The translations under genes and the position numbers were made by a program. From the NCBI GenBank assembly GCA_903934015.1, contig CAIZMI010000041.1, positions 1-52,385 of the forward strand: a stretch of DNA of 52,385 nt, read 5' to 3'. Each line of letters begins with the position of its first letter. Position 1 is the first letter of the stretch. The notes beneath the pieces were generated by a model. That model was not told where the DNA came from. It made no database searches and was given only the letters and a program-made list of their open reading frames with translations. Below are positions 7,490-22,408 of the stretch, in pieces. This stretch comes from an uncultured bacterium (GTDB lineage Bacteria > Patescibacteriota > Andersenbacteria > UBA10190 > CAIZMI01).

Positions 7490-10252
7490 ATGAAGTGGAA
7501 TAAAATGAGCTTGTTTAAAATCAAAATTAAAATATTCTTTGTTCTCGTTATCTTGGGGCTTCTTTGTTTTCGATTTATACCAAGCGTTCATGCTGATGGC
7601 GAAAACTGGCTTACCGGTTATGGTTATCGAAAAGCCATTACAATAACAGGATCATCGAGTGGAGCCTTAACTAATTATCAACTTAAGTTTTTATTGAACA
7701 AAGGCGCCGGTAGCGATAGCGGTAATACGATTTATCTGGGAACAAATGTCCTTGATAGTTTCAATGACATCCGTTTTGCTACTAGCGACGGCAACACGGC
7801 GCTTGATTATTGGGTACAGTCTGTTTCCGGAATCGTTGCGACAGTGTGGGTGGAAGTGGATAGTGTTCCAGCCAATCCCAGCACAAAAACGATATATCTT
7901 TATTACGGAAAGGCTGGTGCTTCAAGCGCGAGCAATGGCGATAATACTTTCGCGTTTTATGATGATTTCAATGATGACAGTATTGATACAAACAAGTGGA
8001 CTGTTTCCACGGATAATGCCGTACTTGCCTCTTATTCCGAATCTGGCGGTTACGCCCGTTTAACTGGTACAGCATCCGGGTCGTGGCACTCGGCTTCTTG
8101 GGAAGCCAAAAACACATTTGGTCCGGGATACGCGCTTACAGCTTCTCAATATTATTCAGATTTCGTTTTTCCTTCAAACATTACTGCTCAAATGGGGTTT
8201 ACCAGCGCCGACTGGAATGATCGTTTGGCGATGAATATTCAGTCTCTTAATTGGGCTTCACCGTCTAATTCATATAAAATTGAATCCGCTAAGAGTGGTA
8301 CCGCAAGTTACTCAAACATCAGCAGTCCACACAATGCTTGGCGCACTTACGATTTTATTTGGACTCCAACTGTAAATAAAATCATAATAAATGGAGTAAC
8401 CGAGGCTACCATAAGTGATACAAGCTATATCTCCACCGATACGGCACTTAATCCAAAAATAATTCTTCAACCAGGAGCGGGAAACGGATATGTTTATACG
8501 GATTGGTTTATGGTGCGAAAGTATGTGAACAATGAACCCACTGTATCTGCGGGTGCGGAAGCAACGCCTGACTCAACACCTCCCACTATCCAAACATATT
8601 CTCCCGCCAATAATGCGACCAGTGTTTCATCTACGGCGAATTTGGTATTGGCATTCAATGAAAATATTACGGCGGTAACCGGAAAAAATATCACCATTAA
8701 AAAAGTATCAGACAACTCCGAGATCGAGACAGTTGCCGCTGATGACACCGGAAAAGTGACGATTGTAAACAATACGGCAAGCATTAATCCGGCTACCGTT
8801 TTGGATGATGTCACGCAGTATTATGTTTCAGTGGAAGCCGGCGCTTTTAAGGATTTATTCAATAATTCGTTTGCCGGTATCACCGACAGTACAACCTGGA
8901 GATTTACCACAAGCGATTCTGCTGCCCCGACCGTAGTTGCTCTCAGTCCGGTCAGTGGGTCTTTCGGGGTGCAGTTAAGTGGAAATTTGGCCATTGAATT
9001 CAACGAGAATGTGAATGTCGGCAGTGGCAGTGTGAGTATCTTTAATAAGTTCACAGACGTATTGGTGGAAGCGGTAGACGTGACGAGTGGGCAAGTGACA
9101 GGCGGTGGAACTTCGATAATTTCAATAAACCCGACTACAAATTTGGTGTATGCAACGGATTATTATATAAAAATTGATCCTACTGCTTTTACCGATTCTT
9201 CGAGTAACTCCTATTCGGGTATTTCCGATAAAACTTCGTGGGTATTGCAAACAGTGTTAGCTCCTGCATCATCAGTTGAATCAAGTGTCTCATCGGGTTC
9301 ACAAAAAAAACTACCGGATCCGGTGCACACGATAGATGTAAATGAGAAGGAGGTAAAAAGTGTAGACAGGAAAATTTTATCAAAGATTGAAGTTGAGCAA
9401 GATGCGCCGTTTGTGTTGCATGTCAAAGCGCCCGATCCAGATCAGGTAAAAAACGTTGTTGTAACAATAAATAAAAAAACGTACAAACTTGCCTTGGCAA
9501 AGGACAAAAAAGGTAACCCGGAATTTTTCATCAAATTGGCATTGTCAAAACCCGGAAATTATCCATATTCCATTATTTCTGATTATGGTTCAACGGTTCG
9601 TCGTGCAAAAGGTGAGGTTATTATTAAAAAGAAAGCAGTAGCTGTAATATTGCCTTCCCCAAAACCAATTTATTCAAAGCAAAATATTGTGAAAGAAAAG
9701 CCTTTTCTCATAAAGCAAAAACCAACTGCTAATAATGTTGTTGAGAAAAGCAAGATTGAGAAAAAGACGGAAGTTGCGCCAACTGTTCCGACGATGATAA
9801 CCACTGTACCCGAATCTTCGCTTGAGATACCAACTGAAAAGATACCCAATGAAACATGGATCGATCTCACCTTCAATCTGTTTAAAACAACCGGGTCAAA
9901 AACAAGTTCGATGATTTCCAATACGTCTCGCTCGTTTGTTGGATTATTTGTAGGGACGGGAGAAAAAATAGCGAAATTATTTGAAAAAAATCCCGCGCAT
10001 GTTTATCGAAAAGTGACTGTGAAGTTGACTTCGGAGGAGGGGACGCCTCTTATTGGTGCGACGGTTACTATTTCGTCGGAACCGCAGACGGCTGTTAGTG
10101 ATAGTGACGGAAAGGTTCAGTTTGAAAACATTGAAGCGGGAAAACATCAATTGAAAGTTGATTATCAGGGATATTCAACCAAACAAGCATTATCAATAAC
10201 CGAACCTGTTACAGAAGTAACAATTAATATCACGGCGGTTTTTAAAAAATAA
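7490..10252 (+). CDS. Giant secreted surface protein (920 aa). Signal peptide, DUF2341/LamG-like N-domain, three tandem Ig-like (SbsA/Big-type) domains, and a conserved C-terminal region with a carboxypeptidase-regulatory-like beta domain.
   Basis: Signal peptide; GYGYRKAITITG...NYQLKF...FNDIRFATSDGNTALDYWVQ matches the DUF2341 signature. ~100-aa repeats span nt ~8578-9245. The C-terminal ~330 aa is ~70% identical to the paralog at 19946-22408. Confidence 0.7.
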   Translation: MKWNKMSLFKIKIKIFFVLVILGLLCFRFIPSVHADGENWLTGYGYRKAITITGSSSGALTNYQLKFLLNKGAGSDSGNTIYLGTNVLDSFNDIRFATSDGNTALDYWVQSVSGIVATVWVEVDSVPANPSTKTIYLYYGKAGASSASNGDNTFAFYDDFNDDSIDTNKWTVSTDNAVLASYSESGGYARLTGTASGSWHSASWEAKNTFGPGYALTASQYYSDFVFPSNITAQMGFTSADWNDRLAMNIQSLNWASPSNSYKIESAKSGTASYSNISSPHNAWRTYDFIWTPTVNKIIINGVTEATISDTSYISTDTALNPKIILQPGAGNGYVYTDWFMVRKYVNNEPTVSAGAEATPDSTPPTIQTYSPANNATSVSSTANLVLAFNENITAVTGKNITIKKVSDNSEIETVAADDTGKVTIVNNTASINPATVLDDVTQYYVSVEAGAFKDLFNNSFAGITDSTTWRFTTSDSAAPTVVALSPVSGSFGVQLSGNLAIEFNENVNVGSGSVSIFNKFTDVLVEAVDVTSGQVTGGGTSIISINPTTNLVYATDYYIKIDPTAFTDSSSNSYSGISDKTSWVLQTVLAPASSVESSVSSGSQKKLPDPVHTIDVNEKEVKSVDRKILSKIEVEQDAPFVLHVKAPDPDQVKNVVVTINKKTYKLALAKDKKGNPEFFIKLALSKPGNYPYSIISDYGSTVRRAKGEVIIKKKAVAVILPSPKPIYSKQNIVKEKPFLIKQKPTANNVVEKSKIEKKTEVAPTVPTMITTVPESSLEIPTEKIPNETWIDLTFNLFKTTGSKTSSMISNTSRSFVGLFVGTGEKIAKLFEKNPAHVYRKVTVKLTSEEGTPLIGATVTISSEPQTAVSDSDGKVQFENIEAGKHQLKVDYQGYSTKQALSITEPVTEVTINITAVFKK

Positions 10253-10325
10253 ACGTTGTGGATATTGTTAATTAAACAATGGTGTAGGCAAAAGTTTGGT
10301 AATATAATTTTCTAAAATTATTTCA

Positions 10326-11729
10326 TTAGCGCATTGAGCGGCCTTGGGTGTCCTTCAGCCACTGAATGGTGCCGCCTAGTTTCTCAGGGGTATTCTTATC
10401 CGTGTTGATGCGATTGAACCAATAATCTTTTTCATCCTCGTTCGCATCGCGTTGGTGGGTAAAATAGAAAAAATAAGGAAACCATTTATTTTCCAGGACG
10501 GAGCTGTCGAGTTCCGCGTTTAATGGTGTGCGGGCCGGATTGTTTCCCGACTTTTTCGCGCCCTTCATTGCATTCAGCAGTTCAGCTTTGTTTTTTACTT
10601 CGCCGTTGTATGCATAATCCACCCAAAACTGATTGTCATTCACCGACGGGTCACGATCGAAAACGCTCATAAAAATATTATTCATATCGGCAATGAGTGC
10701 GCGGATTTCCGGTCGCACGCGGGTTAGGTTATGTGCCGTATTAGGGGCAGATTTTGCGCCACTTGTTGTACTGCTGTTTGTGTTTGGGGCAATTGTATTT
10801 TTGAATGCTCGCACGTCTTCTCCGGTTGCGTATTTGGTGAAAATTTCGGGGTACTCTTTTCTCGCCTGATTTGCCCCACTCATCGCATTTAAAATTTCAG
10901 GACTGGCAATTTTTCTTCTTTTTCCTCCTTGCATCAAGTAAACATCTTTTCCAATTCCAATAAACCAGCCATCCGGATATTTGTCGATGTTTACACCACG
11001 ACGTAGTGTCGCCAGTTGCGCTGACGACAAAGCAACGCGCTGGCTCTCATCCGGATTTCCGTCGGCTTCATAGAAGCGGTCTTTGAGGTATAAATGTTTT
11101 TCAATTTTTCCATCACCGGCTTCCGTTGTCTTCCACATTCGTCCACCGTGATAATGTCCGTCGTAAAATACAAATCCGCCAGGGATTGATTTTCCATCCA
11201 AGGGTTTGCCGGTAGAGAATTGGGTCAGGTGCGCATCAGTGGTGGCGTATAGATTATTTGCGGGGAATTTTAATGTGGCGCGAGCCGTGGTCGACAATTC
11301 TCGTTTTCTCATTTTGTCATCAATGAAATACTGTTTCCCCGAAGATCCTTTTAAAACCTTCCCGACGTAAATTTTATTGACAGCATTACCTTGCGGGTAG
11401 CGGGCAAAATCCTCCGTTGAAATAGTGCGGATAATGTCGCGTTTGAAAAAATGATTTTCGCCAAGCCAGCGGTCCAAAATACTGTTCAAAATTAAAGTCG
11501 TTTTACCGTCGCGAATTTGGTAAACATTATTGTTTGTGGCTTTTTTTACTAATGTGCCGTTTGGCAGGAAATTGGGATTATGGTTTGAAGGGTAGAATTT
11601 TTTATCAACCCTGAAACCGCTTGGGGTCTTCGTCGTCGCGACACCTTGTACTGTTCCACCGGCAAAAGAATCGGAGGCGGAGATAATCGTACCAACCAGC
11701 AATGCGCCTAAAAATAATTTGTTCCTCAT
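10326..11729 (-). CDS. Secreted protein with two C-terminal DUF4214-like repeats
   Basis: Start at the internal ATG (MRNKLFLGALLVG signal peptide) rather than the ORF-track start. Repeats IFMSVFDRDPSVNDNQFWV and the DEKDYWFNRI repeat fit DUF4214. Confidence 0.55.
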   Translation of the reverse strand: MRNKLFLGALLVGTIISASDSFAGGTVQGVATTKTPSGFRVDKKFYPSNHNPNFLPNGTLVKKATNNNVYQIRDGKTTLILNSILDRWLGENHFFKRDIIRTISTEDFARYPQGNAVNKIYVGKVLKGSSGKQYFIDDKMRKRELSTTARATLKFPANNLYATTDAHLTQFSTGKPLDGKSIPGGFVFYDGHYHGGRMWKTTEAGDGKIEKHLYLKDRFYEADGNPDESQRVALSSAQLATLRRGVNIDKYPDGWFIGIGKDVYLMQGGKRRKIASPEILNAMSGANQARKEYPEIFTKYATGEDVRAFKNTIAPNTNSSTTSGAKSAPNTAHNLTRVRPEIRALIADMNNIFMSVFDRDPSVNDNQFWVDYAYNGEVKNKAELLNAMKGAKKSGNNPARTPLNAELDSSVLENKWFPYFFYFTHQRDANEDEKDYWFNRINTDKNTPEKLGGTIQWLKDTQGRSMR

Positions 11730-11802
11730 ATTTTGAATTATCGCATATAGCAAAGTCAACGGCAAAAGCCTCTTGATTTTATTCGAAGTGTATAATGTGG
11801 TT

Positions 11803-12150
11803 ATGGCCACATCTCAATCAACTGTCGATTTCATTTTGGACCAATTAGTGAGAGAGGGACGGGCGAGAGCGAAAAAAATGTTTGGTGAATATGCTTTGTA
11901 TTTTGACGACAAGGTTGTCGGTCTCGTGTGCAACGATACTTTGTATATTAAAATTACCGAACAGGGAAAGGAATTTGTCGGAAAATATTATAAAGAAGGA
12001 TATGCTTATCCTGGCGCGAAAGTTTCAATGGAGATTGATGGTGGACAAATGGAGGATCGCGAGTGGCTCTGTAATTTGGTCCGTATTACATCAGAAAATG
12101 TGCCTTTTCCTAAACCAAAGAAATCCAGGAAAAGAAAGAGTCCCAAGTAA
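11803..12150 (+). CDS. TfoX/Sxy N-terminal-domain protein
   Basis: MFGEYALYFDDKVVGLVCNDTLYIK matches TfoX_N; basic lysine-rich tail. The ATG at 11803 is preferred. Confidence 0.55.
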   Translation: MATSQSTVDFILDQLVREGRARAKKMFGEYALYFDDKVVGLVCNDTLYIKITEQGKEFVGKYYKEGYAYPGAKVSMEIDGGQMEDREWLCNLVRITSENVPFPKPKKSRKRKSPK

Positions 12151-12260
12151 TAATTAAATAGAGTTTTGTAGTTAAAAACGCGAGAGCGGGAATAAATAAA
12201 CCTGGGTCTCAAGTGGAATAGTTCTGTTGCATTGGGTTATTTCTGAGCTATTATTGTCAA

Positions 12261-13361
12261 ATGATTACGGCTACTGGAAAACTTGAAGTTTTTGGGTATG
12301 ATGCATTTTTCGAGTCAGGTAGAGTTGAATTGGGGTTGCTTGATTGTGAGGTGGCGCGGGTTACCGTGATGAGTCGTGGGCAATACAAAGTTATTGGTAA
12401 GAATGGCGAGTTTTTGGCAAAAATTACTGGTAAGATGATGTTTACCGCTAACGCCACGGAGGATTATCCGGCAGTTGGAGATTGGGTGGCGATTAAAGAA
12501 CTGGAAAACAAACAAGCAGTAATAAAAGCAGTGCTCCCACGTAAGACTATAATAAAAAGAAAGTACGGAGATAAGAACCAGGCCGGCGACAAAAATGAAA
12601 CGCAAATTATCGGAGCTAACATTGATGAAGCATTTGTTGTTGAATCGACCGATCGCGATTTTAATCTTAATCGTTTTGAAAGATATTTTGTCATTTTGAG
12701 TGAAGCGGGCGTTAAGCCGGTGATCGTGTTAAACAAGATTGATTTAATTTCGAAAGAAGAGCTTGAGATAAAATTGGTTGAACTTAAAGAAAGATTTAAA
12801 AACGTTATGGTTATTGCCACTAGCACTATTGATGATAGCGGGCTTGATACCTTGATGACGTATTTATTGCCTGGCAAGACTTATTGTTTTCTGGGCTCTT
12901 CCGGTGTTGGAAAATCCACTTTGATAAATAAACTGATTGGGAAATATGTTGCTTCGACGGCAGAAATTAGTGAACAATCCAAAAGGGGGAAGCACATAAC
13001 GACAATGCGCAATATGTATTTTTTAAAAAACGGCGCAATAGTGATCGATAATCCCGGCATGAGAGAGATTGGAATCATTGCCGGTGACGCTGATAGCGTA
13101 TTTGGAGAAATTGCGGTTTTGGCCGGGCAATGCAAGTTTAAAGATTGTACTCATACTCAGGAACCGGGATGCAGAGTTCTTGAGGAGTTAAGTGATGGAA
13201 AATTAAATGAAGAAAAATATTCAAATTACCTGAACCTAAAAAAAGAAACTGATAATTCGCAGATGTCGAATTGGGAAAAAAGAAAAGCGGACCGTGACTT
13301 TGGAAAGTTCATCAATAAAGCCAAGAAAGATTTGAAGAAATTTAAGGGTGGCGGAGTGTAG
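12261..13361 (+). CDS. rsgA: Ribosome small-subunit-dependent GTPase A
   Basis: Circularly permuted GTPase motifs: LNKIDL (G4), GSSGVGKSTLINKL (G1), and the C-terminal zinc knuckle CKFKDCTHTQEPGC. Confidence 0.85.
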   Translation: MITATGKLEVFGYDAFFESGRVELGLLDCEVARVTVMSRGQYKVIGKNGEFLAKITGKMMFTANATEDYPAVGDWVAIKELENKQAVIKAVLPRKTIIKRKYGDKNQAGDKNETQIIGANIDEAFVVESTDRDFNLNRFERYFVILSEAGVKPVIVLNKIDLISKEELEIKLVELKERFKNVMVIATSTIDDSGLDTLMTYLLPGKTYCFLGSSGVGKSTLINKLIGKYVASTAEISEQSKRGKHITTMRNMYFLKNGAIVIDNPGMREIGIIAGDADSVFGEIAVLAGQCKFKDCTHTQEPGCRVLEELSDGKLNEEKYSNYLNLKKETDNSQMSNWEKRKADRDFGKFINKAKKDLKKFKGGGV

Positions 13362-13467
13362 TTGTGGTATTAAAAGTGTGCTAAGTTTGTAACCAAGAAG
13401 GGGTAAATCGTTCGACAATTAACTAATATAAAAATAAATAATGAATAAATAAACATCGTTACTAGTT

Positions 13468-14049: not shown

Positions 14050-14061
14050 AGAACGAGGAAT

Positions 14062-14093
14062 AAAAAAATACCGCTCAAGGCGGTATTTTTTTT
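14062..14093. terminator. Bidirectional rho-independent terminator between convergent genes
   Basis: AAAAAATACCGC-TCAAG-GCGGTATTTTTTT; 7-bp GC-containing stem flanked by A and T runs. Confidence 0.7.
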
Positions 14094-14127
14094 ATTCGGG
14101 ATTGGTGTTATTTAGACCTTTTTATCG

Positions 14128-14319
14128 TTACATTGCGTCCGTATTTATTCCGAGAAGTTTGTAGAGCAGGCAAAAACCGGTGATGGCTGTGAATAACATA
14201 ATTGCGGCCAGGACATAAAGAACGATTTGGATAATCCCTGTAGTGAACAAGGCGATGATAAATATAACAACCGCAGCGATTACGCGAATTATTCGATCTG
14301 TTGAGCTTTCGTTTTTCAT
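14128..14319 (-). CDS. DUF2892 (YgaP-like) small membrane protein
   Basis: Internal ATG start (MKNESSTDRIIRV...); two TM helices and a C-terminal cysteine. Last gene of the arsR-grx operon. Confidence 0.5.
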   Translation of the reverse strand: MKNESSTDRIIRVIAAVVIFIIALFTTGIIQIVLYVLAAIMLFTAITGFCLLYKLLGINTDAM

Positions 14320-14350
14320 TTTAGGTATTCTTATGGTTAATAGATTCAGT

Positions 14351-14611: not shown

Positions 14612-14615
14612 ATAA

Positions 14616-14989: not shown

Positions 14990-15364
14990 ATGAATAAAAC
15001 ATTATTGGGGCTAGGAGCTTTGGCTCTATTGGCTGGTGGAGTGGCAATGACGCTTCCGAGCGTGGCAAGCGCGTATCGTGGCGACCCAAATATTAAGGGT
15101 CCAAATTATACGGCTGAGCGCCATACGGCGATGGAAGCCGCCTTTGAGAAAGGAGACTACAATGCCTGGAAAAATTTAATGCAGGGTCGTGGTCGCGTTA
15201 CACAAGTTGTAACTAAGGATAATTTTTCAAAGTTTGCTCAAATTCACCAATTGACCGAAGAAGGCAAGACAGCTGAGGCACAGAAAATTCGTCAAGAACT
15301 TGGCTTGGGATTGCAAAACGGAACGGGAAAAGGAATGGGAATGGGACAGAATAGAAACCGTTAA
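14990..15364 (+). CDS. Small secreted protein, unknown function
   Basis: Strong SD (AAGGGAGGTG) upstream, signal peptide, and a Gly/Met-rich tail. Confidence 0.5.
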   Translation: MNKTLLGLGALALLAGGVAMTLPSVASAYRGDPNIKGPNYTAERHTAMEAAFEKGDYNAWKNLMQGRGRVTQVVTKDNFSKFAQIHQLTEEGKTAEAQKIRQELGLGLQNGTGKGMGMGQNRNR

Positions 15365-15435
15365 TCTGTAAGAAAATTGGGGTTGTGCCTTGGTGTTAAA
15401 CCGAGGCACAATACCCAAATGGCGACTATGAGTCT

Positions 15436-15981
15436 ATGATTGAGTACGAAGAAAAAACCGATGAAGAATTAGTGGAAATTATTCGGTCGGTAGATCGAGA
15501 ATTATTTTCAGTGATTATTGATCGGTATGAAAAAAAATTATTTAGATATGCGTTTAACCTGATTAAGAATGAGTTAAAAGCATCTGACATCGTACAAGAG
15601 GCATTCATCAAGTCTTTTATAAACCTCAAGGGCTTTGATACAAAAAAGAAGTTCTCGAGCTGGATCTATCGCATTGTTCATAACGAAGCAATGAATAGTG
15701 TAAAAAAATATCGCAAGGAGGTACCAATTCTGGATGATATGGATTTTCAGAGTAATGAAAACATTGAAAAAGATTTTGAAAAGAAAGAAATTAGTGAAGA
15801 AGTAGTGCAGTGTATGGATCAGTTGCCGTTAATGTATGCGGAACCGCTCGCGTTATATTATTTTGAAGATAAAACATATGATGAAATTAGTGATATTTTG
15901 CACATCCCGCCCGGGACTGTTGCGATTCGCATTAAGAGATCGAAGATTATTATGAAAAAAATATGTCAAACGAAGAGATAA
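15436..15981 (+). CDS. ECF-type sigma-70 family RNA polymerase sigma factor
   Basis: Region 2 (FSSWIYRIVHNEAMN) and region 4 HTH (YDEISDILHIPPGTVAIRIKR). Confidence 0.75.
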   Translation: MIEYEEKTDEELVEIIRSVDRELFSVIIDRYEKKLFRYAFNLIKNELKASDIVQEAFIKSFINLKGFDTKKKFSSWIYRIVHNEAMNSVKKYRKEVPILDDMDFQSNENIEKDFEKKEISEEVVQCMDQLPLMYAEPLALYYFEDKTYDEISDILHIPPGTVAIRIKRSKIIMKKICQTKR

Positions 15982-16439
15982 AAATTAAAGACGCGGTGAT
16001 GGAAAAAATTCGTCACGATGAAATAAAAATGCGCCCAACTATTTACTATATCGGCGGGTCGATTTTAATGCTTGTTGGGCTGGTTGCGTCGGTTGTGCTA
16101 TCTGTTTTCCTGGTGAGCTTGGTCCAATTTTCTTTACGTTCTCATGGACCAATGGGTCAGTATCGCTTAGATCAGTTATTGGGAAGCTTTCCTTGGTGGA
16201 CGATTCCGGTTGCAGTGGTGGGATTAGTTGCCGGAGTTATCATCTTACGTCGTTACGAGGTTGTCTATAAGCACAATGCGTGGTTGGTAGTTTCCGGATT
16301 CATTTTGTCTGTGTTGTTGGCTGGGATATTAATCAACTTAACCGGTTTGGATAATATTTGGTTAAAACGCGGTCCGATGCGGGGAATGCTGAGAAACAAT
16401 AGTCAAACACAGACTTTTGAGGATTTTAGAAGAAGATAG
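15963..16439 (+). CDS. Membrane protein co-transcribed with the ECF sigma; putative anti-sigma factor
   Basis: Overlaps the sigma gene 3' end by 19 nt; N-terminal cytoplasmic segment followed by TM helices. Confidence 0.4.
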   Translation: MSNEEIKIKDAVMEKIRHDEIKMRPTIYYIGGSILMLVGLVASVVLSVFLVSLVQFSLRSHGPMGQYRLDQLLGSFPWWTIPVAVVGLVAGVIILRRYEVVYKHNAWLVVSGFILSVLLAGILINLTGLDNIWLKRGPMRGMLRNNSQTQTFEDFRRR

Positions 16440-16490
16440 TAGTATGATGGCGAACTCACGGGATAAGCATTAATTTTTTTCGTTAATTAG

Positions 16491-16760
16491 ATGAAAATAA
16501 AAGTGTACGGATCAGGTTGTTCTACATGTAAAAGTCTTTTCGAACGCGTAAAGAAGGTAATCATTGAAAACGAAATAACTGCTGAGGTGGAACATATTAC
16601 CGATGTTCAAGCAATGATCGATATGGGTTTTATTCAAAGCCCGGCGCTTGTGATTGATGGGGTACCGGTTTTGGCCGGCCATATTCCCAGTGAGGAACAA
16701 ATATTAGAAATAATTAAACTGAATAAGGAGACTGACATCAATCGGGAGGAAAAACAGTAA
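16491..16760 (+). CDS. Thioredoxin-fold small redox-active disulfide protein (TM0983 / thioredoxin_3-like)
   Basis: MKIKVYGSGCSTCKSL; CxxC near the N-terminus; 89 aa. Confidence 0.6.
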   Translation: MKIKVYGSGCSTCKSLFERVKKVIIENEITAEVEHITDVQAMIDMGFIQSPALVIDGVPVLAGHIPSEEQILEIIKLNKETDINREEKQ

Positions 16761-17731
16761 TGCGCATGAATATTTTTTATCCTGTTCAGTTTTTTGCGGA
16801 TTTTCTTGTTTACCGTTTGATTAATCTTGATCCGGCTTCTCGTTTGGGTGAAGTGGTAAACTATTTTGTTTTTGACTCGGTAAAAATATTGTTGATGCTA
16901 TTGGTAATTATTTTTATTGTTTCTCTGCTTCGTACTTTTATTCCACCCGAACGAACCAGGCAGATATTGTCTGGAAAGAATACTCTGTTGGGCAATCTAA
17001 CAGCTGCGCTCTTTGGCATTATTACTCCTTTTTGTACCTGTAGTGCGATCCCGCTCTTTTTGGGTTTTATACAGGCGGGCGTCCCGCTTGGTGTGACATT
17101 TTCTTTTCTGGTTTCATCGCCAATGATTAACGAGGTTGCGCTCGTTCTGTTGCTTGGTTCATTTGGACCCAAGGTGGCGTTGATTTATGTCACAAGTGGC
17201 TTGATAATCGCGACATTATCAGGATATATAATTGGTAAAATGAAGTTGGATGGTTTGGTGGATGATTCTGTTCTCAGTCAGACAAGGCCAGCGCAGTTTT
17301 ATGGTTTCAAACAAAGTTGGAAACAAAGAGTAGTATATTCGTGGGCATATTCTCTCGGGATTCTAAAAAAGGTTTTGCCATATGTTTTGGTCGGTATTGC
17401 GCTTGGCGCATGGATTCATGGATACGTGCCCGCAGAGTTTTTGGCGCGTTGGGTGGGTGGTAACAATTGGTATGCCGTGCCACTGGCAACATTAATTGGT
17501 GTTCCGCTTTACTCAAATGCCGCCGGGGTTATACCGCTCGTTAGTGTGCTTACAGAGAAGGGAGTCGCGATGGGCACGACACTCGCATTCATGATGGCCG
17601 TGACAGGGCTTTCGCTTCCCGAGTTTATGATTTTAAAGAAAGTAATGAAAACCAAACTCCTTGTAATTTTTGCTACCATAGTGGCGATAGGGATTATTTT
17701 TACGGGTTATCTTTTTAACGCAATTCTTTAG
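16760..17731 (+). CDS. COG0701-family permease (ArsP-like) with a conserved CTC motif
   Basis: Polytopic membrane protein with PFCTCSAIPLF. Genes of this family are typically adjacent to the thioredoxin_3 gene. Confidence 0.55.
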   Translation: MRMNIFYPVQFFADFLVYRLINLDPASRLGEVVNYFVFDSVKILLMLLVIIFIVSLLRTFIPPERTRQILSGKNTLLGNLTAALFGIITPFCTCSAIPLFLGFIQAGVPLGVTFSFLVSSPMINEVALVLLLGSFGPKVALIYVTSGLIIATLSGYIIGKMKLDGLVDDSVLSQTRPAQFYGFKQSWKQRVVYSWAYSLGILKKVLPYVLVGIALGAWIHGYVPAEFLARWVGGNNWYAVPLATLIGVPLYSNAAGVIPLVSVLTEKGVAMGTTLAFMMAVTGLSLPEFMILKKVMKTKLLVIFATIVAIGIIFTGYLFNAIL

Positions 17732-17799
17732 TTGGTAAGTGATTTGGTTTGATGATTAACTGAGGATGTAATTTATAACTAATCCAGTATAATCACCGT

Positions 17800-19269
17800 A
17801 TGGCTAAGACAATAAAGGATTTAGTTCTCCGTTTGCGTGGACATCAAGGTAATTTGATTGCCGGAGTCTTGTTGTTAATAATGTTGTTGATACTACTTTC
17901 GCCGACGTTCAAGAGCAGACGGTCGGTTGAAGTGCTTTCAAAAAGCGAACCTTTTGTTTTGGTGCCAAAAGTGCCTGTTGCGAATAAAGTGCTGGTTCCG
18001 GTTGGGAAGATTGATTATTTTTTCGTTTGGGTTGACGAGGGGGTGGCGGAAAATAAATTAAAGCCGGTCGATTTTGAATCAGTGGAGCTGGCCGTGATTG
18101 CACCTGATGGACGCAATTTACTTAAGGTGACAAAACCAAAACTAATTAAGCGGGAGGATAATGCGGCGTTGCAGTTTTCTTTTCCCACGATTAGCGTTGA
18201 CGACGCCGAAATATACTCACTTGTTTTGGAGCAGACCGGAAATGGAAAAATAAAAGTGCGAATACCAAATAATGACCAAATCAAAAGCGGTGAAACAATA
18301 GCCATCGCACTGCAATTAGCCGAAAGAAAAAATTGGTTAACTTCGATGCTTGATAAAATTTACTCCGAAAATATCGCGAAGGATGATATTTCAATGTATT
18401 TACATCGCGGGTTGCAGATTGTGCAAGGGAAAAATCCATATTCGTGCGCGATTGAGACGACGGAAGCGTGTATGGGGTATCCGGCGCATTTACCAGGGAT
18501 GTATCTGGTGGCGGCCGGTTTCGCAAAATTCGGGGTTGATGATTTAGTGAGGTGGGCACAAGTGTGGCGGCCGATTATGATTCTAACCTGGCTCAGTATT
18601 GGGGCCATACTGGCAATTTATTCTTATCGAAAAGGACGACCAATTTTGGCCGTAGCCATTTTAGGTTTTTGGTTGTTTAATCGGTGGTCGGTGAATGTGG
18701 CCCAAATTGCTCATACGGATTTTCTTGGTGTTTTGTTTTTGCTATTAGCAATTATCTTGGTGAATCGAATGCCGGCCTTGGCAGCCTTGTTCCTTGGAAT
18801 TTCTATTTCTGTAAAACAGCTTGCTATTTTGATTGTTCCTATTTTCATTGTCTATTTGTGGCGCCATAAAAAAGTGAAATTCTCCAAATTATTTTTACAT
18901 CTTGTTCTCGTATTTATTGTTCCTGCCCTGATTACGTTACCGTTTTTTATTAATGATCCAAGTGCTGTTACGAAGGCGCTTCTAAATGTTACTGAACGCT
19001 CGGCGCAATCAGTGCATGGCTTCGCGCCATCAATGGATCAGTTGCTGGATGTGACAAATAATAGCAAATCGTTTCTGATGCTGTTTATCGTTGGTGCTGT
19101 TTATGTTGCGGGCTGGCGGAAAGAAGTTAATTTAGTTGCGGGAACATTACTAATTATGGCGATTGTTATGGGCTTCACATCCGTATTGTACAACCAGTAT
19201 TTTGTCTGGCTACTTCCGTTTATCGCTTTAGTCGTGGTCGATTTTAGTGTGCGAGATAAGTTTGATTGA
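17800..19269 (+). CDS. Polytopic membrane protein, possibly a GT-C-fold glycosyltransferase (DUF2029/GT87-like)
   Basis: 489 aa with >10 TM helices and an extracytoplasmic loop. The family call is tentative. Confidence 0.35.
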   Translation: MAKTIKDLVLRLRGHQGNLIAGVLLLIMLLILLSPTFKSRRSVEVLSKSEPFVLVPKVPVANKVLVPVGKIDYFFVWVDEGVAENKLKPVDFESVELAVIAPDGRNLLKVTKPKLIKREDNAALQFSFPTISVDDAEIYSLVLEQTGNGKIKVRIPNNDQIKSGETIAIALQLAERKNWLTSMLDKIYSENIAKDDISMYLHRGLQIVQGKNPYSCAIETTEACMGYPAHLPGMYLVAAGFAKFGVDDLVRWAQVWRPIMILTWLSIGAILAIYSYRKGRPILAVAILGFWLFNRWSVNVAQIAHTDFLGVLFLLLAIILVNRMPALAALFLGISISVKQLAILIVPIFIVYLWRHKKVKFSKLFLHLVLVFIVPALITLPFFINDPSAVTKALLNVTERSAQSVHGFAPSMDQLLDVTNNSKSFLMLFIVGAVYVAGWRKEVNLVAGTLLIMAIVMGFTSVLYNQYFVWLLPFIALVVVDFSVRDKFD

Positions 19270-19341
19270 TTTTTTCAGTCGTTGATTTATGGGAAAAATT
19301 AAAGTTTGTATTCTCAAAAAAATAGGTGTTAAAATAAAGAG

Positions 19342-19896
19342 ATGAGGAAAGTGGTATTGGCGAGCATGAATATTGTCTTGATGGTAGCTTTTATAATTGT
19401 TGCTAAACCGGTTTTTGCGCACCGTTCCGGATGCCACAATTTGCACACATGTCCTTCGGATAACAAAACATATGTTTGTGGCGATTTGGGGTATCCGTGT
19501 GATGGATCTACGAGCGCGGAGAAAATTTCAATTAAACAAATTAGTGTTCCCCTGGTTATTGAAAAAGCATTTCTTGATACTTTTGGCCGTAAACCAACTG
19601 ACTTCGAAAGTGCTTATTGGAAAAATCGTTTTCGCAACGATAAAGATGGTTTGTATAAAATACGGAGAACCATGAAGTGGTATGAATCGGTTGGCTCTTT
19701 TGGACCGAAAGTTTCTGTGAGTGTTGCGAAGGCAAGACTTGTAAAAAACATGAATTCTATTTTTGCCAGTGTCTATGGTCGACAGCCTTCTGAATCTGAG
19801 AATAAGTATTGGTTAACGAGGTTAATCGACAAAACAACGGAGGAGACTTTAGTAAACACGATGCAGTATCATCGCGTAAACAATTTGGTTCACTAA
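19342..19896 (+). CDS. Secreted Cys-rich protein with two DUF4214 repeats
   Basis: Signal peptide, CxxxxxC cluster, and repeats FLDTFGRKPTDFESAYW and IFASVYGRQPSESENKYW. Confidence 0.55.
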   Translation: MRKVVLASMNIVLMVAFIIVAKPVFAHRSGCHNLHTCPSDNKTYVCGDLGYPCDGSTSAEKISIKQISVPLVIEKAFLDTFGRKPTDFESAYWKNRFRNDKDGLYKIRRTMKWYESVGSFGPKVSVSVAKARLVKNMNSIFASVYGRQPSESENKYWLTRLIDKTTEETLVNTMQYHRVNNLVH

Positions 19897-19945
19897 TGTG
19901 TTTGCAAAAATTTTAAAAACAAATAATTTTGCTATACTGTAAAAG

Positions 19946-22408
19946 ATGTGTTTGCGAGATAAAAAGGTCTTAGTGATAAGGGAATTATTTACCCTATTTT
20001 TTGTCGTGAGTGTGTTTTTGGGATTGTCTGCAAAACAGGTATCAGCCGCGGACTGGACCGGAGAGTATTGGAATCTGTCCGCGTTTTCCGGTGCATCTCC
20101 CGCATTTCCAAGTGGGGTGCCAACATTAACCCGCACCGATTCAACGATAAATTTTGATTGGGGGATGGGGTCGCCTGATTCGTCTATTAATGTTGATGAT
20201 TTTGCGACACGTTGGACAAAGACATTGGATATGGCGGGTGGTTCATATACATTTACAACCAATTCTGATGATGGAGTACGCTTTTATATGGATGGTAATT
20301 TATTACTTTCGTCTTGGATCGATCAGGCGCCGGCCGTAAATAGTGTAACGACTACTGTTACGGCGGGCAGTCACACATTAAAAGTTGAATATTATGAAAA
20401 CGGCGGTGGGGCCGTTATACAATTTTCCTATGATTCTCCGCCGGGAGTTTCTTCTTTTTCGCCGGCCACCGGGGCAACCGGTGTAGTCCCAACTTCCAAC
20501 TTGGTTGTAACATTTAGTGAAAATATTACGGCGGTATCGGGAAAGAATATTGCAATTAAGAAAACCGAAGACGATACGACAGTGGAAACAATTTCTGCCA
20601 ACGATACCGGGAAAGTGTCAGTGAGTGGCGCTATTGCAACAATTAATCCGGCCACCGTATTATCTGATTTGACGGGGTATTATGTACTGATTGACAGCGG
20701 AGCATTCAAAGACAGTGCCAATAAAATTTTTGCCGGAATTTCCGCAAAAACAGATTGGGCTTTTACGACGGCCGATACATCCGCTCCGCTTGTTTCCATC
20801 CTTACTCCTGCCAATTCCGCAACTTCGGTAGCTCCATCGGCAAATTTGGTTTTGGCATTTAATGAAAATATTACAGCGGTTGCCGGTAAAAACATTACGA
20901 TCAAAAAGAAGTCCGATGTGTCGGATGTGGAAGTAATTTCCGCCAATGACACCGGAAAAGTGACGGTAAGCGGAAATACGGCAAGTATCAATCCCGCAAC
21001 AGTCTTGGATGATCTGACACAATATTATGTCTTGACGGACAGCGGTGCTTTTAAAGACACGGCAAACAATTCCTTTGCCGGTATAGCTGATTCAACTGTT
21101 TGGGGGTTTACCACGGCAGATTCTACCGCGCCGACTGCGGTGGCGTTGGTGCCGGTTAGTGGGAGTTTAGGTGTGACCCTTGGCGCGAATCTTTCGATTG
21201 AGTTTAATGAGCCGATAGTTGTCGGTGCAGGCAATGTGCGGATATTTGCGAAAAATTCTGACGTTGAAATTGCAACAATTGATGTTACCGGTGCCGGAGT
21301 GACAAATAATGGTTCGGGAATAATCGCTATCAATCCGTCTGCTGATTTGCAGTATCAAACAGATTATTACGTAAAAATTGATGGAACAGCTTTTGTTGAT
21401 ACTGCGAGTAATGCTTACGCAGGAATTTCCGATAAAACAACTTGGGTGTTTACAACCGTTGTGGCGCCGGCTGTGGTATTGGATGGCAACAACGGGTCTG
21501 GTGATAAACAAGAAAACGAACGACCTGATCCGGTACAATCTCTAGCTTCTTTTGAAAATAAAGCAGTTAGTTCAACGGGGGAGGTGCCAAAAATCGAAGT
21601 TGTTACCGGCGAGAAATTTGTATTAAAAATCAAAGCCCCGGATTCTGATCAAGTAAAATCTGTTGTGGTAAAAATTGACAATAAAGCATATCGTCTTGTT
21701 CTTGATAAGAACGATCCTAAAAATCCTTTTTTTGCAATTAAATTACTGCTTGATAAACCTGGAAAATATTCGTATAGCGCAGTGACGGATTATGGTTCAA
21801 CGGTGCGCAGGAGTAAGGGCGTGGTTTTGGTGGGAGAAAAAAAGAAAGAAATTGTTGCAACTCCAAAACCGCGGGTGGTGGTAAAAAAAGAAAAAACTAA
21901 AATTGCTGTTGATAAGCCAACGGCTGTTTCGCTAAATAAAACCGAATCAGTTACGGGCAAAAATTTAGTTGCCATCCCACAATCGGCACCCAAGACGGTT
22001 AAAGAAGTCGTGTCAAAAATTTCTTGGTTTAATCGCACGGTATCTAAAATTTCTTCTGCCTCGCGAGTAGTAACTGGTTTTGTTAGTGGTAGTGGAAATA
22101 AAATAGTCAGTCTTTTCGAGAAGAAGCCGGCTCACATTTATCGAACAGTCACTGTAAAGCTGGCGACGGCTGAAGGTGTCCCGCTGGTGGGCGCAACGGT
22201 CACGTTGTTTTCTGATCCAAAAACATCAGTTTCTAATCAGGATGGAAAAGCAGAGTTTCATGATATAGAAGCGGGGAAACATAAATTGCAGATCGATTAT
22301 CAGGGTTACAAGAGCAAACAATCACTTGAGATCACGGAACCCGTTACGGAGGTAACGATTAATGTAACTGCAAACTTAAATAAGGGTTGGCGTTTTCTAG
22401 GATTTTAG
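19946..22408 (+). CDS. Giant secreted surface protein (820 aa). PA14 N-domain, four tandem Ig-like domains, and the same conserved C-terminal module as 7490-10252.
   Basis: PA14-like region (GEYW...SDDGVRFYMDGNLL...LKVEYYENGGGAVIQFSY). Repeats span nt ~20435-21470. The C-terminal regions (KAPDSDQVK...; FEKKPAHIYRTVTVKL...EITEPVTEVTIN) are ~70-75% identical to the first giant gene. Confidence 0.7.
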   Translation: MCLRDKKVLVIRELFTLFFVVSVFLGLSAKQVSAADWTGEYWNLSAFSGASPAFPSGVPTLTRTDSTINFDWGMGSPDSSINVDDFATRWTKTLDMAGGSYTFTTNSDDGVRFYMDGNLLLSSWIDQAPAVNSVTTTVTAGSHTLKVEYYENGGGAVIQFSYDSPPGVSSFSPATGATGVVPTSNLVVTFSENITAVSGKNIAIKKTEDDTTVETISANDTGKVSVSGAIATINPATVLSDLTGYYVLIDSGAFKDSANKIFAGISAKTDWAFTTADTSAPLVSILTPANSATSVAPSANLVLAFNENITAVAGKNITIKKKSDVSDVEVISANDTGKVTVSGNTASINPATVLDDLTQYYVLTDSGAFKDTANNSFAGIADSTVWGFTTADSTAPTAVALVPVSGSLGVTLGANLSIEFNEPIVVGAGNVRIFAKNSDVEIATIDVTGAGVTNNGSGIIAINPSADLQYQTDYYVKIDGTAFVDTASNAYAGISDKTTWVFTTVVAPAVVLDGNNGSGDKQENERPDPVQSLASFENKAVSSTGEVPKIEVVTGEKFVLKIKAPDSDQVKSVVVKIDNKAYRLVLDKNDPKNPFFAIKLLLDKPGKYSYSAVTDYGSTVRRSKGVVLVGEKKKEIVATPKPRVVVKKEKTKIAVDKPTAVSLNKTESVTGKNLVAIPQSAPKTVKEVVSKISWFNRTVSKISSASRVVTGFVSGSGNKIVSLFEKKPAHIYRTVTVKLATAEGVPLVGATVTLFSDPKTSVSNQDGKAEFHDIEAGKHKLQIDYQGYKSKQSLEITEPVTEVTINVTANLNKGWRFLGF

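What the first reader, a model, noticed from the sequence alone, without database searches (positions are those of the whole stretch)
7490..22408. Two paralogous giant Ig-repeat surface proteins with different N-terminal sensor or adhesion domains and a shared C-terminal module
Genes 7490-10252 and 19946-22408 share three or four ~100-aa Ig-like (SbsA/Big-type) repeats and a ~330-aa C-terminal region that is 70-75% identical (KAPDSDQVK...; carboxypeptidase-regulatory-like beta-sandwich). They differ at the N-terminus: DUF2341/LamG-like in the first, PA14 in the second. The internal repeats are diverged at the DNA level (~65% identity), so they are old. Two secreted DUF4214-repeat proteins (10326-11729, 19342-19896) and a polytopic GT-C-like membrane protein (17800-19269) lie between them. 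This looks like an S-layer or adhesin locus with domain-swapped paralogs and a possible glycosylation or anchoring partner.
Basis: partly seen in the sequence, partly recalled or inferred. Interest (0 to 1): 0.5.

Follow-up and report, generated by a model that had tools for sequence, protein, structure and literature searches.

The report
Two head-swapped lectin-like surface proteins
Two related secreted proteins of an uncultured ultra-small (Patescibacteria/CPR) bacterium carry different sugar-binding-type heads on the same Ig-like stalk and the same rare C-terminal base; they are probably ordinary modular adhesins, and the genes between them are not shown to work with them.

Summary
The core observation holds, but several details are wrong. 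Genes 7490-10252 (A, 920 aa) and 19946-22408 (B, 820 aa) are true paralogs (BLASTP 53% over 564 aa).

- **Architecture.** A is signal peptide, DUF2341 plus a probable ConA-like domain, 2 Big_5, then a C-module. B is signal peptide, PA14, 3 Big_5, then the same C-module.
- **C-module.** It is about 300 aa: an Ig-like sandwich, a disordered linker of about 90 aa, a CarboxypepD_reg sandwich and a short basic/aromatic tail. It is 51% identical between A and B, not 70-75%.
- **Size and repeats.** The proteins are not giant, and they have 2 and 3 repeats, not 3-4.
- **Distribution.** The full module occurs in about 9 clusters among 1.84 billion representatives. It is always C-terminal and sits behind at least five different heads (PA14, DUF2341, FBA, propeller-like, unknown). 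Head swapping is therefore real.
- **Anchor.** No transmembrane helix, LPXTG, SLH or T9SS signal is present, so how the proteins are held on the cell is unknown.
- **Neighbours.** It forms its own conserved trio with the two weakly DUF4214-like proteins, in a genome stretch with no A/B-like gene. The other intervening genes are housekeeping.

Best reading: Sec-secreted lectin-headed adhesins of a CPR bacterium. This is a new member of a known kind, of low to moderate interest.

The parts
7490..10252 (+). Gene A, 920 aa: secreted modular protein with a DUF2341-type head
   Evidence: ORF. Pfam. An identical protein, P0001/P0117, is present in public metagenomes.
7490..7594 (+). A: N-terminal Sec-type signal peptide (aa 1-35, ...IPSVHA|DGENW)
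   Evidence: It is the only hydrophobic segment in A (aa 5-36). Basic n-region and AXA-like site read from the sequence. No predictor was run.
7760..8005 (+). A: DUF2341 domain (aa 91-172)
   Evidence: PF10102, E 1.9e-25, 89.5 bits against a cut-off of 23.4.
8006..8563 (+). A: second half of the head (aa 173-358), probably a ConA/LamG-like jelly roll
   Evidence: Aa 37-360 recur as one unit of about 320 aa in many DUF2341 proteins. 3keto-disac_hyd (ConA-like clan) scores E 0.042 in A and E 2e-5 at the same position in P0044. In P0060, Laminin_G_3 lies at aa 173-355, after that protein's first DUF2341-like stretch at aa 3-123. Weak support; no structure was predicted.
8564..9265 (+). A: two Big_5 Ig-like stalk domains (aa 359-474 and 475-592)
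   Evidence: PF13205, E 6.2e-24, 2 stretches. Identities to the B repeats are 69% and 61%.
9311..10249 (+). A: C-module (aa 608-920). Ig-like domain 627-715 with the KAPDxDQVK motif, K/T/P-rich linker 716-835, CarboxypepD_reg 836-915, end ...TAVFKK
   Evidence: CarboxypepD_reg E 9.9e-11. Aligned with B and 8 other proteins. Linker composition.
19946..22408 (+). Gene B, 820 aa: secreted modular protein with a PA14 head
   Evidence: ORF. Pfam. An identical protein, P0002, lies on 13 contigs.
19946..20047 (+). B: N-terminal Sec-type signal peptide (aa 1-34, ...AKQVSA|ADW)
   Evidence: Hydrophobic segment at aa 6-35. Sequence. No predictor was run.
20108..20440 (+). B: PA14 domain (aa 55-165)
   Evidence: PF07691, E 1.1e-16. 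The closest solved relative is the PA14 dyad of the C. thermocellum anti-sigma factor RsgI3, 6qe7, E 1.6e-31.
20432..21460 (+). B: three Big_5 Ig-like stalk domains (aa 163-275, 276-390, 391-505)
   Evidence: PF13205, E 5.6e-43, 3 stretches. B1 and B2 are 66% identical, which indicates an internal duplication.
21521..22405 (+). B: C-module (aa 526-820). Ig-like domain about 545-632, disordered K-rich linker 633-728, CarboxypepD_reg 729-808, tail NLNKGWRFLGF
   Evidence: AlphaFold2 model: two beta-sandwiches with block pLDDT 76-90 and 72-90, and a linker with pLDDT below 50. Foldseek gives only generic Ig and transthyretin-like matches. The profile search places the module at the C-terminus in every full match.
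17800..19269 (+). Neighbour, not shown to be linked to A/B: GT-C-fold membrane protein (489 aa) with an extracytoplasmic beta-sandwich after TM1
   Evidence: 17 of 20 family members hit ALG3 (best E 3.7e-9), 11 hit PIG-M, 4 hit ALG6/8 and 4 hit GT87. AF2 pLDDT 86.8. Best Foldseek matches are GPI mannosyltransferase I, ALG3, PIG-U and PimE.
19342..19896 (+). Neighbour: 184-aa secreted protein with a Cys-rich N-terminus and a DUF4214-like C-terminus. It travels with the GT-C gene.
   Evidence: DUF4214 E 0.0089, below the cut-off. A 54% homolog lies next to the GT-C homolog in L014.
10326..11729 (-). Neighbour: 467-aa secreted protein with a DUF4214-like C-terminal repeat, third member of the GT-C trio
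   Evidence: DUF4214 E 0.018, below the cut-off. Shares a repeat with the 184-aa protein, E 7e-6. A 49% homolog lies 3.3 kb from the GT-C homolog in L014.

Best explanation
A and B are paralogous, Sec-secreted, non-enzymatic modular surface proteins (lectin-headed adhesins) of an uncultured Patescibacteria (CPR) bacterium. Each has three parts.

1. A distal head of a carbohydrate-binding type: DUF2341 plus a probable ConA-like domain in A, and PA14 in B.
2. A spacer stalk of 2 or 3 Big_5 Ig-like domains.
3. A family-specific constant base of about 300 aa: an Ig-like sandwich, a flexible linker of about 90 aa, a terminal CarboxypepD_reg (transthyretin-like) sandwich and a short basic/aromatic tail.

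Proposed mechanism: the base keeps the protein at the producer's envelope, the stalk projects the head, and the two heads bind different glycans. The targets would be on host cells or on environmental polymers.

- **Shown:** paralogy, domain content, predicted folds, the constant base with swapped heads, and the absence of known anchors.
- **Inferred:** export, glycan binding, retention through the base, and a role in attachment.
For: **Paralogy and domains.**

**Head of B.** The PA14 domain is related to the PA14 dyad of RsgI3 and to the PA14 domains of RTX/Lap adhesins.

**Head of A.** It recurs as a unit of about 320 aa in many surface proteins of CPR bacteria and archaea. Some of these carry an explicit wall anchor, for example P0009, which has the same head at 54% identity plus PG_binding_1.

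**The base is constant.**
- A profile search of 1.84 billion representatives finds the full module in only 9 proteins (the two window proteins among them). It is always at the extreme C-terminus, behind different heads. P0007 is a tenth, partial member that lacks the Ig-like domain.
- A second genome (L020) has two adjacent paralogs with different heads, one of them FBA at E 1.2e-20.
- The predicted structure is two sandwiches joined by a disordered linker.

**The base is probably the cell-proximal end.** In 38 of 40 next-best matches, the equivalent terminal sandwich is followed directly by a C-terminal transmembrane helix and a basic tail. That domain type is therefore normally membrane-proximal.

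**Composition.** The mature proteins have no cysteine and a pI of 5.4.

**Organism.**
- Family member P0133 lies in a Candidatus Andersenbacteria MAG.
- RsgA (57%) and DUF2202 (59%) have homologs in the locus L013, whose contig is labelled Saccharibacteria.

**Literature.**
- Protein adhesins are required for epibiotic growth of cultivated Saccharibacteria (PMC10633639).
- DUF2341-containing large proteins of Patescibacteria were proposed to act in adhesion (PMC11809585).
Against: - No ligand, localisation or expression data exist.
- No recognisable anchor is present: no transmembrane helix, and no SLH, PG_binding, Por_Secre_tail or RTX family among the Pfam hits. The sequences do not end in an LPXTG-type sorting signal or begin with a lipobox. 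The proteins could simply be released.
- The C-module model rests on only 10 sequences. Its linker and the conserved G/S/A-rich segment before the last domain are unmodelled.
- The fold matches are generic.
- The taxonomy of the window itself is indirect.
- Conservation of PA14 sugar- and calcium-binding residues was not tested.
Confidence: 0.62

Rival explanations
1. A and B are S-layer (lattice-forming) proteins. The Ig-like domains tile the cell surface and the C-module attaches the lattice to the envelope.
For: - The mature proteins are acidic (pI 5.4), Cys-free and Ser/Thr-rich, as many S-layer proteins are.
- Foldseek lists S-layer chains (D. radiodurans HPI 8cka, B. anthracis Sap 8s80) among many other Ig-fold matches.
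- No membrane anchor is present.
Against: - No SLH, CWB2 or other S-layer anchoring domain was found.
- The structural matches are generic Ig folds, ranked alongside titin and pilins.
- Lectin-type heads that are swapped between paralogs and between genomes fit ligand binding better than lattice packing.
- The family is very rare, with about 10 clusters. An essential S-layer protein would be expected across the lineage.
Confidence: 0.1
2. A and B are released, soluble glycan-binding proteins that are not retained on the cell. They might scavenge or bind polysaccharide, or bridge cells. The family would have lost the ancestral C-terminal membrane anchor.
For: - The closest relatives of the terminal domain carry a transmembrane helix that this family lacks.
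- The distant member P0148 still has that helix.
- A even lacks the aromatic tail. Its stop codon falls exactly where the tail begins, and the in-frame continuation reads TLWILLIKQW.
- PA14 also occurs in glycosidases and polysaccharide sensors.
Against: - The terminal sandwich is among the best-conserved parts of the proteins (66% between A and B; 35-49% across the module in the nine clearer members). This argues for a retained interaction function.
- Related heads and stalks in other CPR proteins end in PG_binding_1 or transmembrane anchors (precomputed Pfam columns).
- No catalytic partner is encoded nearby.
Confidence: 0.2
3. The whole span 7490-22408 is one surface-glycoprotein locus. The GT-C enzyme would glycosylate the Ser/Thr/Pro-rich linkers of A and B, the DUF4214-like proteins would be accessory factors, and the ECF sigma/anti-sigma pair would regulate the set.
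For: - The GT-C fold is real, with an invariant Asp (D196) among the 20 aligned homologs.
- The GT-C, 184-aa and B genes follow one another on the same strand with gaps of 50-73 bp.
- In L009-L011 the B-like gene P0132 is followed directly by homologs of the 124-aa protein, the sigma factor and the anti-sigma factor (83%, 70% and 63% identity).
Against: - In L014 the GT-C trio occurs with no A/B-like gene within 6 kb either side of the GT-C gene, and in L015 and L017 the GT-C gene occurs alone.
- No GT-C trio gene lies next to the family members in L001, L008, L009, L018 or L020, and no sigma factor lies next to those in L001, L008, L018 or L020.
- The sigma cluster adjacency is seen only in a close relative (RsgA 69%), so it may be plain synteny.
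- The other intervening genes are unrelated housekeeping.
Confidence: 0.08

Closest known systems
PA14-headed fibrillar adhesins: bacterial RTX adhesins such as Marinomonas MpIBP and Lap-type proteins, and yeast Flo/Epa adhesins
   Same: Same logic of a distal PA14 lectin-type head on a repetitive Ig-like or low-complexity stalk, with the cell-attachment element at the other end. The PA14 of B matches Lap and RTX adhesin PA14 chains (6m8m at E 2.4e-5, 36gk at E 9e-4).
   Different: No RTX repeats or T1SS signal, and no GPI signal. The proteins are far smaller (820-920 aa). They use a Sec signal peptide in a Patescibacteria (CPR) bacterium, a group generally regarded as lacking an outer membrane (from my own knowledge; not tested here). 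The base is a CarboxypepD_reg-ended module.
PA14 sensor dyad of Clostridium thermocellum anti-sigma factor RsgI3 (PDB 6qe7)
   Same: It is the closest solved relative of B's head (E 1.6e-31). It is known as a polysaccharide-binding domain (from my own knowledge of the RsgI literature).
   Different: RsgI3 is a membrane-spanning anti-sigma factor with a PA14 dyad. B has one PA14 domain, no transmembrane helix and no anti-sigma domain, so it is not a sensor of that kind.
DUF2341 / ConA-like surface proteins of CPR bacteria and archaea
   Same: A's head (aa 37-360) is 42-54% identical to the heads of P0009, P0015 and P0016. The last two come from Candidatus Beckwithbacteria. Large DUF2341 proteins of Patescibacteria have been proposed as adhesion factors (PMC11809585).
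   Different: Those proteins use other stalks and ends, such as Flg_new repeats with PG_binding_1, dockerin/cohesin or T9SS tails. Only P0133 combines this head with the same C-module.
C-terminally transmembrane-anchored surface proteins with a membrane-proximal CarboxypepD_reg domain
   Same: They have the same terminal beta-sandwich at the same position. 38 of 40 next-best profile matches are of this type. The window's own gene 30037-31572(-) has this layout.
   Different: A, B and their family end 5-12 residues after the domain with ...FKK plus an F/W-rich tail, and have no helix.
Sortase-anchored Gram-positive adhesins and pilins (MSCRAMM-like)
   Same: Signal peptide, tandem Ig-like domains and prealbumin-like (SpaA-type) sandwiches. 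There are weak SpaA Pfam hits and pilin Foldseek matches.
   Different: No LPXTG motif, hydrophobic helix or basic tail at the C-terminus.

Membership tests
PA14 domain proteins (PF07691) | Sequence match to the PA14 model above the curated cut-off | tested here: met
   B aa 55-165, 61.4 bits against a cut-off of 24. PDB relatives 6qe7 and 6qdi at E 1e-29 to 1e-31.
PA14 domain proteins (PF07691) | Functional calcium/sugar-binding site (the DcisD-type loop of lectin PA14 domains) | not tested
   B has ...TNSDDGVRFYMDG... at the position of the conserved DDG. Site geometry and loop residues were not analysed. Binding cannot be tested with these tools.
DUF2341 (PF10102) | Sequence match above the curated cut-off | tested here: met
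   A aa 91-172, 89.5 bits against a cut-off of 23.4.
LamG / ConA-like lectin fold (Laminin_G_3 and related) | Match to a ConA-like clan model, or a predicted jelly-roll fold, for A aa 173-358 | tested here: inconclusive
   Only 3keto-disac_hyd at E 0.042 in A. The homolog P0044 scores E 2e-5 at the same position. In P0060, Laminin_G_3 lies after the first DUF2341-like stretch.
Big_5 bacterial Ig-like domain (PF13205) | Repeated matches above the curated cut-off | tested here: met
   A has 2 stretches (85.2 bits) and B has 3 stretches (146.4 bits), against a cut-off of 23.6.
CarboxypepD_reg (PF13620) transthyretin-like sandwich | Sequence match above the cut-off and a beta-sandwich fold | tested here: met
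   A scores 40.1-42.3 bits and B scores 33.5 bits (marginal), against a cut-off of 32.3. The AF2 sandwich has pLDDT 72-90 and matches carboxypeptidase D domain II (1qmu) and the SusC NTE (9hfj).
S-layer proteins | Known S-layer anchoring domain (SLH, CWB2 and similar) | tested here: not met
   No such Pfam hit in A or B.
S-layer proteins | Self-assembly into a 2-D lattice and very high abundance | not testable with these tools
   Needs cryo-ET, proteomics or in vitro assembly.
Sortase substrates (LPXTG proteins) | C-terminal LPXTG motif, hydrophobic helix and basic tail | tested here: not met
   A ends ...INITAVFKK and B ends ...NLNKGWRFLGF. There is no C-terminal hydrophobic segment.
T9SS cargo (Por_Secre_tail C-terminal domain, PF18962) | C-terminal domain matching PF18962 | tested here: not met
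   There is no PF18962 hit in A or B, although many Big_5 homologs carry that precomputed annotation, one of them named as from Bacteroidetes. The nearest named relatives of the window are CPR MAGs.
DUF4214 (PF13946), for 10326-11729(-) and 19342-19896 | Sequence match above the curated cut-off | tested here: not met
   15.5 and 16.5 bits against a cut-off of 23.2, at E 0.018 and 0.0089. The two proteins do share a repeat with each other.
GT-C fold glycosyltransferases, for 17800-19269 | GT-C membrane fold related to polyprenyl-phosphate-sugar-dependent transferases | tested here: met
   The family hits ALG3 (17 of 20 members, best E 3.7e-9), PIG-M (11 of 20), ALG6/8 (4) and GT87 (4). The AF2 model (pLDDT 86.8) matches GPI mannosyltransferase I 9wno (E 2.9e-4, TM-score 0.56 on the target), ALG3 9s6r, PimE 9dm7 and ArnT. 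The window protein alone stays below every Pfam cut-off.
GT-C fold glycosyltransferases, for 17800-19269 | Conserved acidic residue in the first extracytoplasmic loop, and transferase activity | tested here: inconclusive
   D196 is invariant in 20 homologs, within D-I-x-x-Y-x-x-R-G-x-Q-I-x-x-G-x-N-P-Y. From memory this resembles the EL1 motif of PIG-M and PimE. No structural superposition of the site was done, and activity cannot be tested here.
CopC copper-binding protein (the name JGI gives to A and P0007) | Match to PF04234 above the cut-off | tested here: not met
   A has no CopC hit. In B the hit scores 18.6 bits against a cut-off of 23.3, E 0.0039, with no stretch passing on its own. It is a cross-hit between Ig-like folds.

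The most novel reading that the evidence does not exclude
The ~300-aa C-module would be a so far undescribed, lineage-restricted cell-surface retention or sorting module of Patescibacteria. The module consists of an Ig-like domain with the KAPDxDQVK motif, a flexible linker with a conserved G/S/A-rich segment, a terminal CarboxypepD_reg sandwich and a ...FKK-x2-4-F/W tail. It would have replaced an ancestral C-terminal transmembrane anchor, and it would serve as a universal socket onto which different lectin heads are shuffled, giving a small repertoire of host-recognition adhesins.
Probability: 0.25. Interest if true: 0.5.

Novelty: new member of a known kind. Interest (0 to 1): 0.27.

Why it matters
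Patescibacteria mostly live attached to other microbes, and few of their attachment proteins are known. A small family that keeps one base and swaps sugar-binding heads gives concrete candidates for host-recognition adhesins. It also poses a simple question: how is a protein held on the cell without any known anchor?

The finding corrects public annotations too. A and P0007 are named 'CopC copper-binding protein', which is not supported.

Beyond that, every domain except one Ig-like sandwich belongs to a well-known family, and modular lectin-headed adhesins are common. The result is useful for annotation rather than surprising.

Tried and rejected
1. The search for homologous proteins with the two-sequence C-module alignment returned no hit at all, not even the query proteins. 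I treated this as a limit of the word index. The exhaustive representative search replaced it.
2. The first genome-contig scan used patterns too specific to A and B and found nothing. The second, with a 10-sequence alignment, found only the Andersenbacteria contig and a relic.
3. The metagenome-contig scan returned only two loci, both on contigs already seen (the P0132 and P0007 genomes). The family is rare and no new contexts were gained.
4. The afdb50 fold library was not available.
5. NCBIfam gave nothing meaningful for any of the six proteins.
6. Promoter and terminator scans found no more sites than shuffled sequence, so transcription units could not be defined.
7. No tRNA and no Rfam family occur in the window, so there is no RNA marker for taxonomy.
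8. The 463-aa (-) and 184-aa (+) gene pair next to the sigma cluster in L009 and next to the GT-C gene in L017 looked like the window's 467-aa and 184-aa genes by size. They are unrelated polytopic membrane and other proteins.
9. Gene 30037-31572(-) was considered as a third paralog because of a faint CarboxypepD_reg hit. It has a different layout (HELAH motif, C-terminal transmembrane helix) and is not a family member.
10. A type IV pilus-like reading, after the COG-style description of DUF2341 quoted in PMC11809585, was rejected. A has an ordinary Sec-type signal peptide and no pilin-like N-terminus.


Full report
**1. What is in the sequence**

The span holds two long + strand ORFs: A (7490-10252, 920 aa) and B (19946-22408, 820 aa). 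They are clearly paralogs. BLASTP aligns 564 residues at 53% identity with E = 0.0.

Pfam gives the following, all above curated cut-offs:
- A: DUF2341 (aa 91-172), two Big_5 Ig-like domains and a C-terminal CarboxypepD_reg domain.
- B: PA14 (aa 55-165), three Big_5 domains and the same C-terminal domain.

Each protein starts with a basic stretch, a hydrophobic core and an AXA-type site (VHA|D in A, VSA|A in B). Neither has any other helix-length hydrophobic segment. Family members from other genomes have the same kind of N-terminus directly before their first domain. No formal signal-peptide predictor was available.

**2.

- The proteins are under 1,000 aa, so they are not giant.
- Big_5 repeats number 2 in A and 3 in B. 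A1 pairs with B2 (69%) and A2 with B3 (61%). B1 is an internal duplicate of B2 (66%).
- The shared C-terminal region is 313/295 aa and 51% identical overall: 66% in the last domain, 51% in the Ig-like domain and 38% in the linker. The stated 70-75% is not met.
- Gene 10326-11729 is on the minus strand.
- The DUF4214 matches in that gene and in 19342-19896 are below Pfam's cut-off. The two proteins do share a repeat with each other.

**3. Anatomy of the shared C-module**

The AlphaFold2 model of B aa 526-820 used a 10-sequence alignment. It shows two beta-sandwiches at block pLDDT 76-90 and 72-90, joined by about 90 residues with pLDDT below 50.

Foldseek against the PDB returns only generic Ig and transthyretin-like matches: carboxypeptidase D domain II, the SusC N-terminal extension, titin, pilins and S-layer domains.

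The first sandwich has no Pfam family of its own and carries a conserved KAPDxDQVK motif. Weak DUF4625 and Big_7 hits appear in relatives. The linker is K-rich and basic in A and B (pI 9.6 and 10.5), but this is not so in all relatives. After the last domain most members end with ...EFKK followed by 2-7 residues rich in F and W (GWRFLGF, SWSLF, DRGWW, SSFRWF). A and P0137 stop at the KK/KE position. After A's stop codon the in-frame continuation reads TLWILLIKQW, which may be a lost tail.

**4. Distribution and head swapping**

A profile of the module was searched against 1.84 billion representative proteins. It gives full-length matches in only nine proteins: A, B, P0132-P0137 and the distant P0148. 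P0007 lacks the Ig-like domain. The module sits at the extreme C-terminus in every clear member (P0148 carries a transmembrane extension after it).

Their N-terminal parts differ:

| Protein | N-terminal part |
|---|---|
| P0132 | PA14 + 4 Big_5 |
| P0007 | PA14 + 3 Big_5 |
| P0133 | DUF2341, no Big_5 |
| P0135 | unknown domain + 1 Big_5 |
| P0137 | propeller-like repeat (weak SGL hit) |
| P0134 | 2 Big_5 |

In locus L020 the gene for P0134 is preceded by an ORF in another frame that carries a signal peptide and an FBA domain (E 1.2e-20). The FBA domain continues into P0134, so the two ORFs look like one frameshifted gene. That gene lies directly after the P0135 gene. A second genome therefore also has two adjacent paralogs with different heads on the same base.

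The scans of GTDB genomes and JGI metagenomes found very few further copies, so the family is rare.

**5. Which end faces the cell**

In 38 of 40 next-best matches to the terminal sandwich, the domain is followed directly by a hydrophobic helix and a basic tail. The distant member P0148 and the window's own gene 30037-31572(-) have the same layout. This domain type is therefore normally membrane-proximal.

The Big_5 and DUF2341 relatives found with A often carry a recognised anchoring or sorting domain: PG_binding_1, SLH or a T9SS tail. I infer that the C-module is the cell-proximal base and the head is distal.

A and B themselves show no transmembrane helix, and none of the Pfam families that hit them is an SLH, PG_binding, T9SS-tail or RTX family. 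Their sequences do not end in an LPXTG-type signal or begin with a lipobox. How they are retained, or whether they are retained at all, remains open.

**6. Heads**

The closest solved relatives of B's PA14 are the PA14 dyad of C. thermocellum RsgI3 (6qe7, E 1.6e-31) and a related PA14 protein (6qdi). Lap and RTX adhesin PA14 domains follow. B has no transmembrane or signalling part, so it is not a sensor.

A's head (aa 37-360) recurs as one unit of about 320 aa in many DUF2341 proteins, sometimes in tandem. Its second half is probably ConA-like. This rests on weak evidence only: 3keto-disac_hyd at E 0.042 in A and E 2e-5 at the same place in P0044, and Laminin_G_3 after the first DUF2341-like stretch in P0060.

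**7. Organism**

There are no rRNA, tRNA or Rfam markers in the window. The evidence for the lineage is indirect:
- Family member P0133 lies on a Candidatus Andersenbacteria MAG contig.
- The locus L013, on a contig labelled Saccharibacteria, holds RsgA (57%) and DUF2202 (59%) homologs.
- The nearest named homologs of A's head are from Candidatus Beckwithbacteria.

The window is most likely from a Patescibacteria (CPR) genome. Its exact class is not settled.

**8. The genes in between**

Between A and B lie:
- the 467-aa secreted protein (minus strand), TfoX_N, RsgA, DUF2202 and glutaredoxin;
- a 124-aa secreted protein and an ECF sigma/anti-sigma pair;
- thioredoxin and an ArsP permease;
- the 489-aa membrane protein and the 184-aa secreted protein.

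The 489-aa protein is GT-C-like:
- 17 of 20 homologs hit ALG3, 11 hit PIG-M, 4 hit ALG6/8 and 4 hit GT87.
- Its AF2 model has pLDDT 86.8.
- The model's best matches are GPI mannosyltransferase I, ALG3, PIG-U, PimE, EmbB and ArnT.
- It has an extra extracytoplasmic beta-sandwich after TM1 and an invariant Asp196 in a D..Y..RG.QI..G.NPY stretch.

Its homolog in L014 is flanked by homologs of the 184-aa (54%) and 467-aa (49%) proteins within 7.6 kb. No A/B-like gene lies within 6 kb either side of that GT-C gene. In L015 and L017 the GT-C gene has neither neighbour.

Conversely, the GT-C trio is absent from the contexts of family members in L001, L008, L009, L018 and L020.

The only recurrent neighbour of a family member is the 124-aa / sigma / anti-sigma cluster directly after P0132 in L009-L011. 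That genome is a close relative (RsgA 69%), so plain synteny explains it as well as function does.

The span is therefore best seen as two independent adhesin genes plus a separate GT-C trio plus housekeeping genes.

**9. Mechanism and rivals**

Best-supported reading (confidence about 0.6): A and B are Sec-exported, non-enzymatic adhesins with lectin-type heads. Each has a glycan-binding head, an Ig-like spacer and a constant base. The two paralogs offer different binding specificities.

Literature context:
- Protein adhesins are essential for epibiotic growth in cultivated Saccharibacteria (PMC10633639).
- DUF2341-bearing large proteins were proposed as adhesion factors in Patescibacteria (PMC11809585).

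Rivals:
- Released soluble lectins that lost the ancestral anchor (0.2).
- S-layer proteins (0.1).
- A single glycoprotein locus including the GT-C enzyme (under 0.1).

The JGI name 'CopC' for A and P0007 is not supported.

**10. Verdict**

It is partly unsupported: there is no evidence for one functional locus, an S-layer or a sensor.

This is a new member of a well-known kind of protein. Its one modestly interesting feature is a rare, anchor-less C-terminal base shared behind several different heads.

Noticed in passing
window 33743-35467 (+): A 574-aa protein matches the Major Vault Protein shoulder domain (E 1.9e-19) and the Vault_3 repeat (E 3.8e-14). It is a bacterial MVP-like protein in a probable CPR genome.
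   Followed up: no
window 30037-31572 (-): A 511-aa protein has a signal peptide, a HELAH (HExxH-like) motif, two CarboxypepD_reg-like stretches and a C-terminal transmembrane helix plus basic tail. It is another surface protein. It shows the anchored layout that A and B lack.
   Followed up: partly
window 10326-11729 (-), 17800-19269 (+), 19342-19896 (+); L014 4727-12353: The GT-C-like membrane protein and the two secreted proteins that share a DUF4214-like repeat recur together in another genome at 48-54% identity. They may form a unit of their own with unknown substrate. The 184-aa protein has a conserved Cys-rich N-terminus (HRSGCH..HTC.SDN..Y.CGDLGYPC).
   Followed up: partly
L020 4900-7192: An FBA (F-box-associated, sugar-binding type) domain with a signal peptide continues in another frame into P0134 (2 Big_5 plus C-module). 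This is an apparent frameshift or sequencing error that splits one gene. It lies directly after the paralog P0135.
   Followed up: partly
L013 about 9990-10160 (contig labelled Candidatus Saccharibacteria): The last ~55 residues of the family's terminal domain and tail (...HKLVIDYQDYVSKQTVTLDQEVEEVTIQITAEFKQKNFLGF*) are present but preceded by stop codons and lie outside any ORF. This looks like a pseudogene relic, lying between RsgA and DUF2202 homologs that are adjacent in the window.
   Followed up: partly
window 10250-10285: A's stop codon falls exactly where relatives begin their aromatic tail, and the in-frame continuation reads TLWILLIKQW. The tail may have been cut off by a nonsense change.
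   Followed up: no
window 14990-16439; L009 13161-14594: A 124-aa secreted protein, an ECF sigma factor and a membrane anti-sigma-like protein form a conserved cluster (83%, 70% and 63% identity). In L009-L011 the cluster directly follows the PA14-type family member P0132.
   Followed up: partly
window 16491-17731 (+): A small Thioredoxin_3 protein sits immediately upstream of, and abuts, an ArsP_1-type permease (E 7.4e-71). The pair is unrelated to the finding.
   Followed up: no
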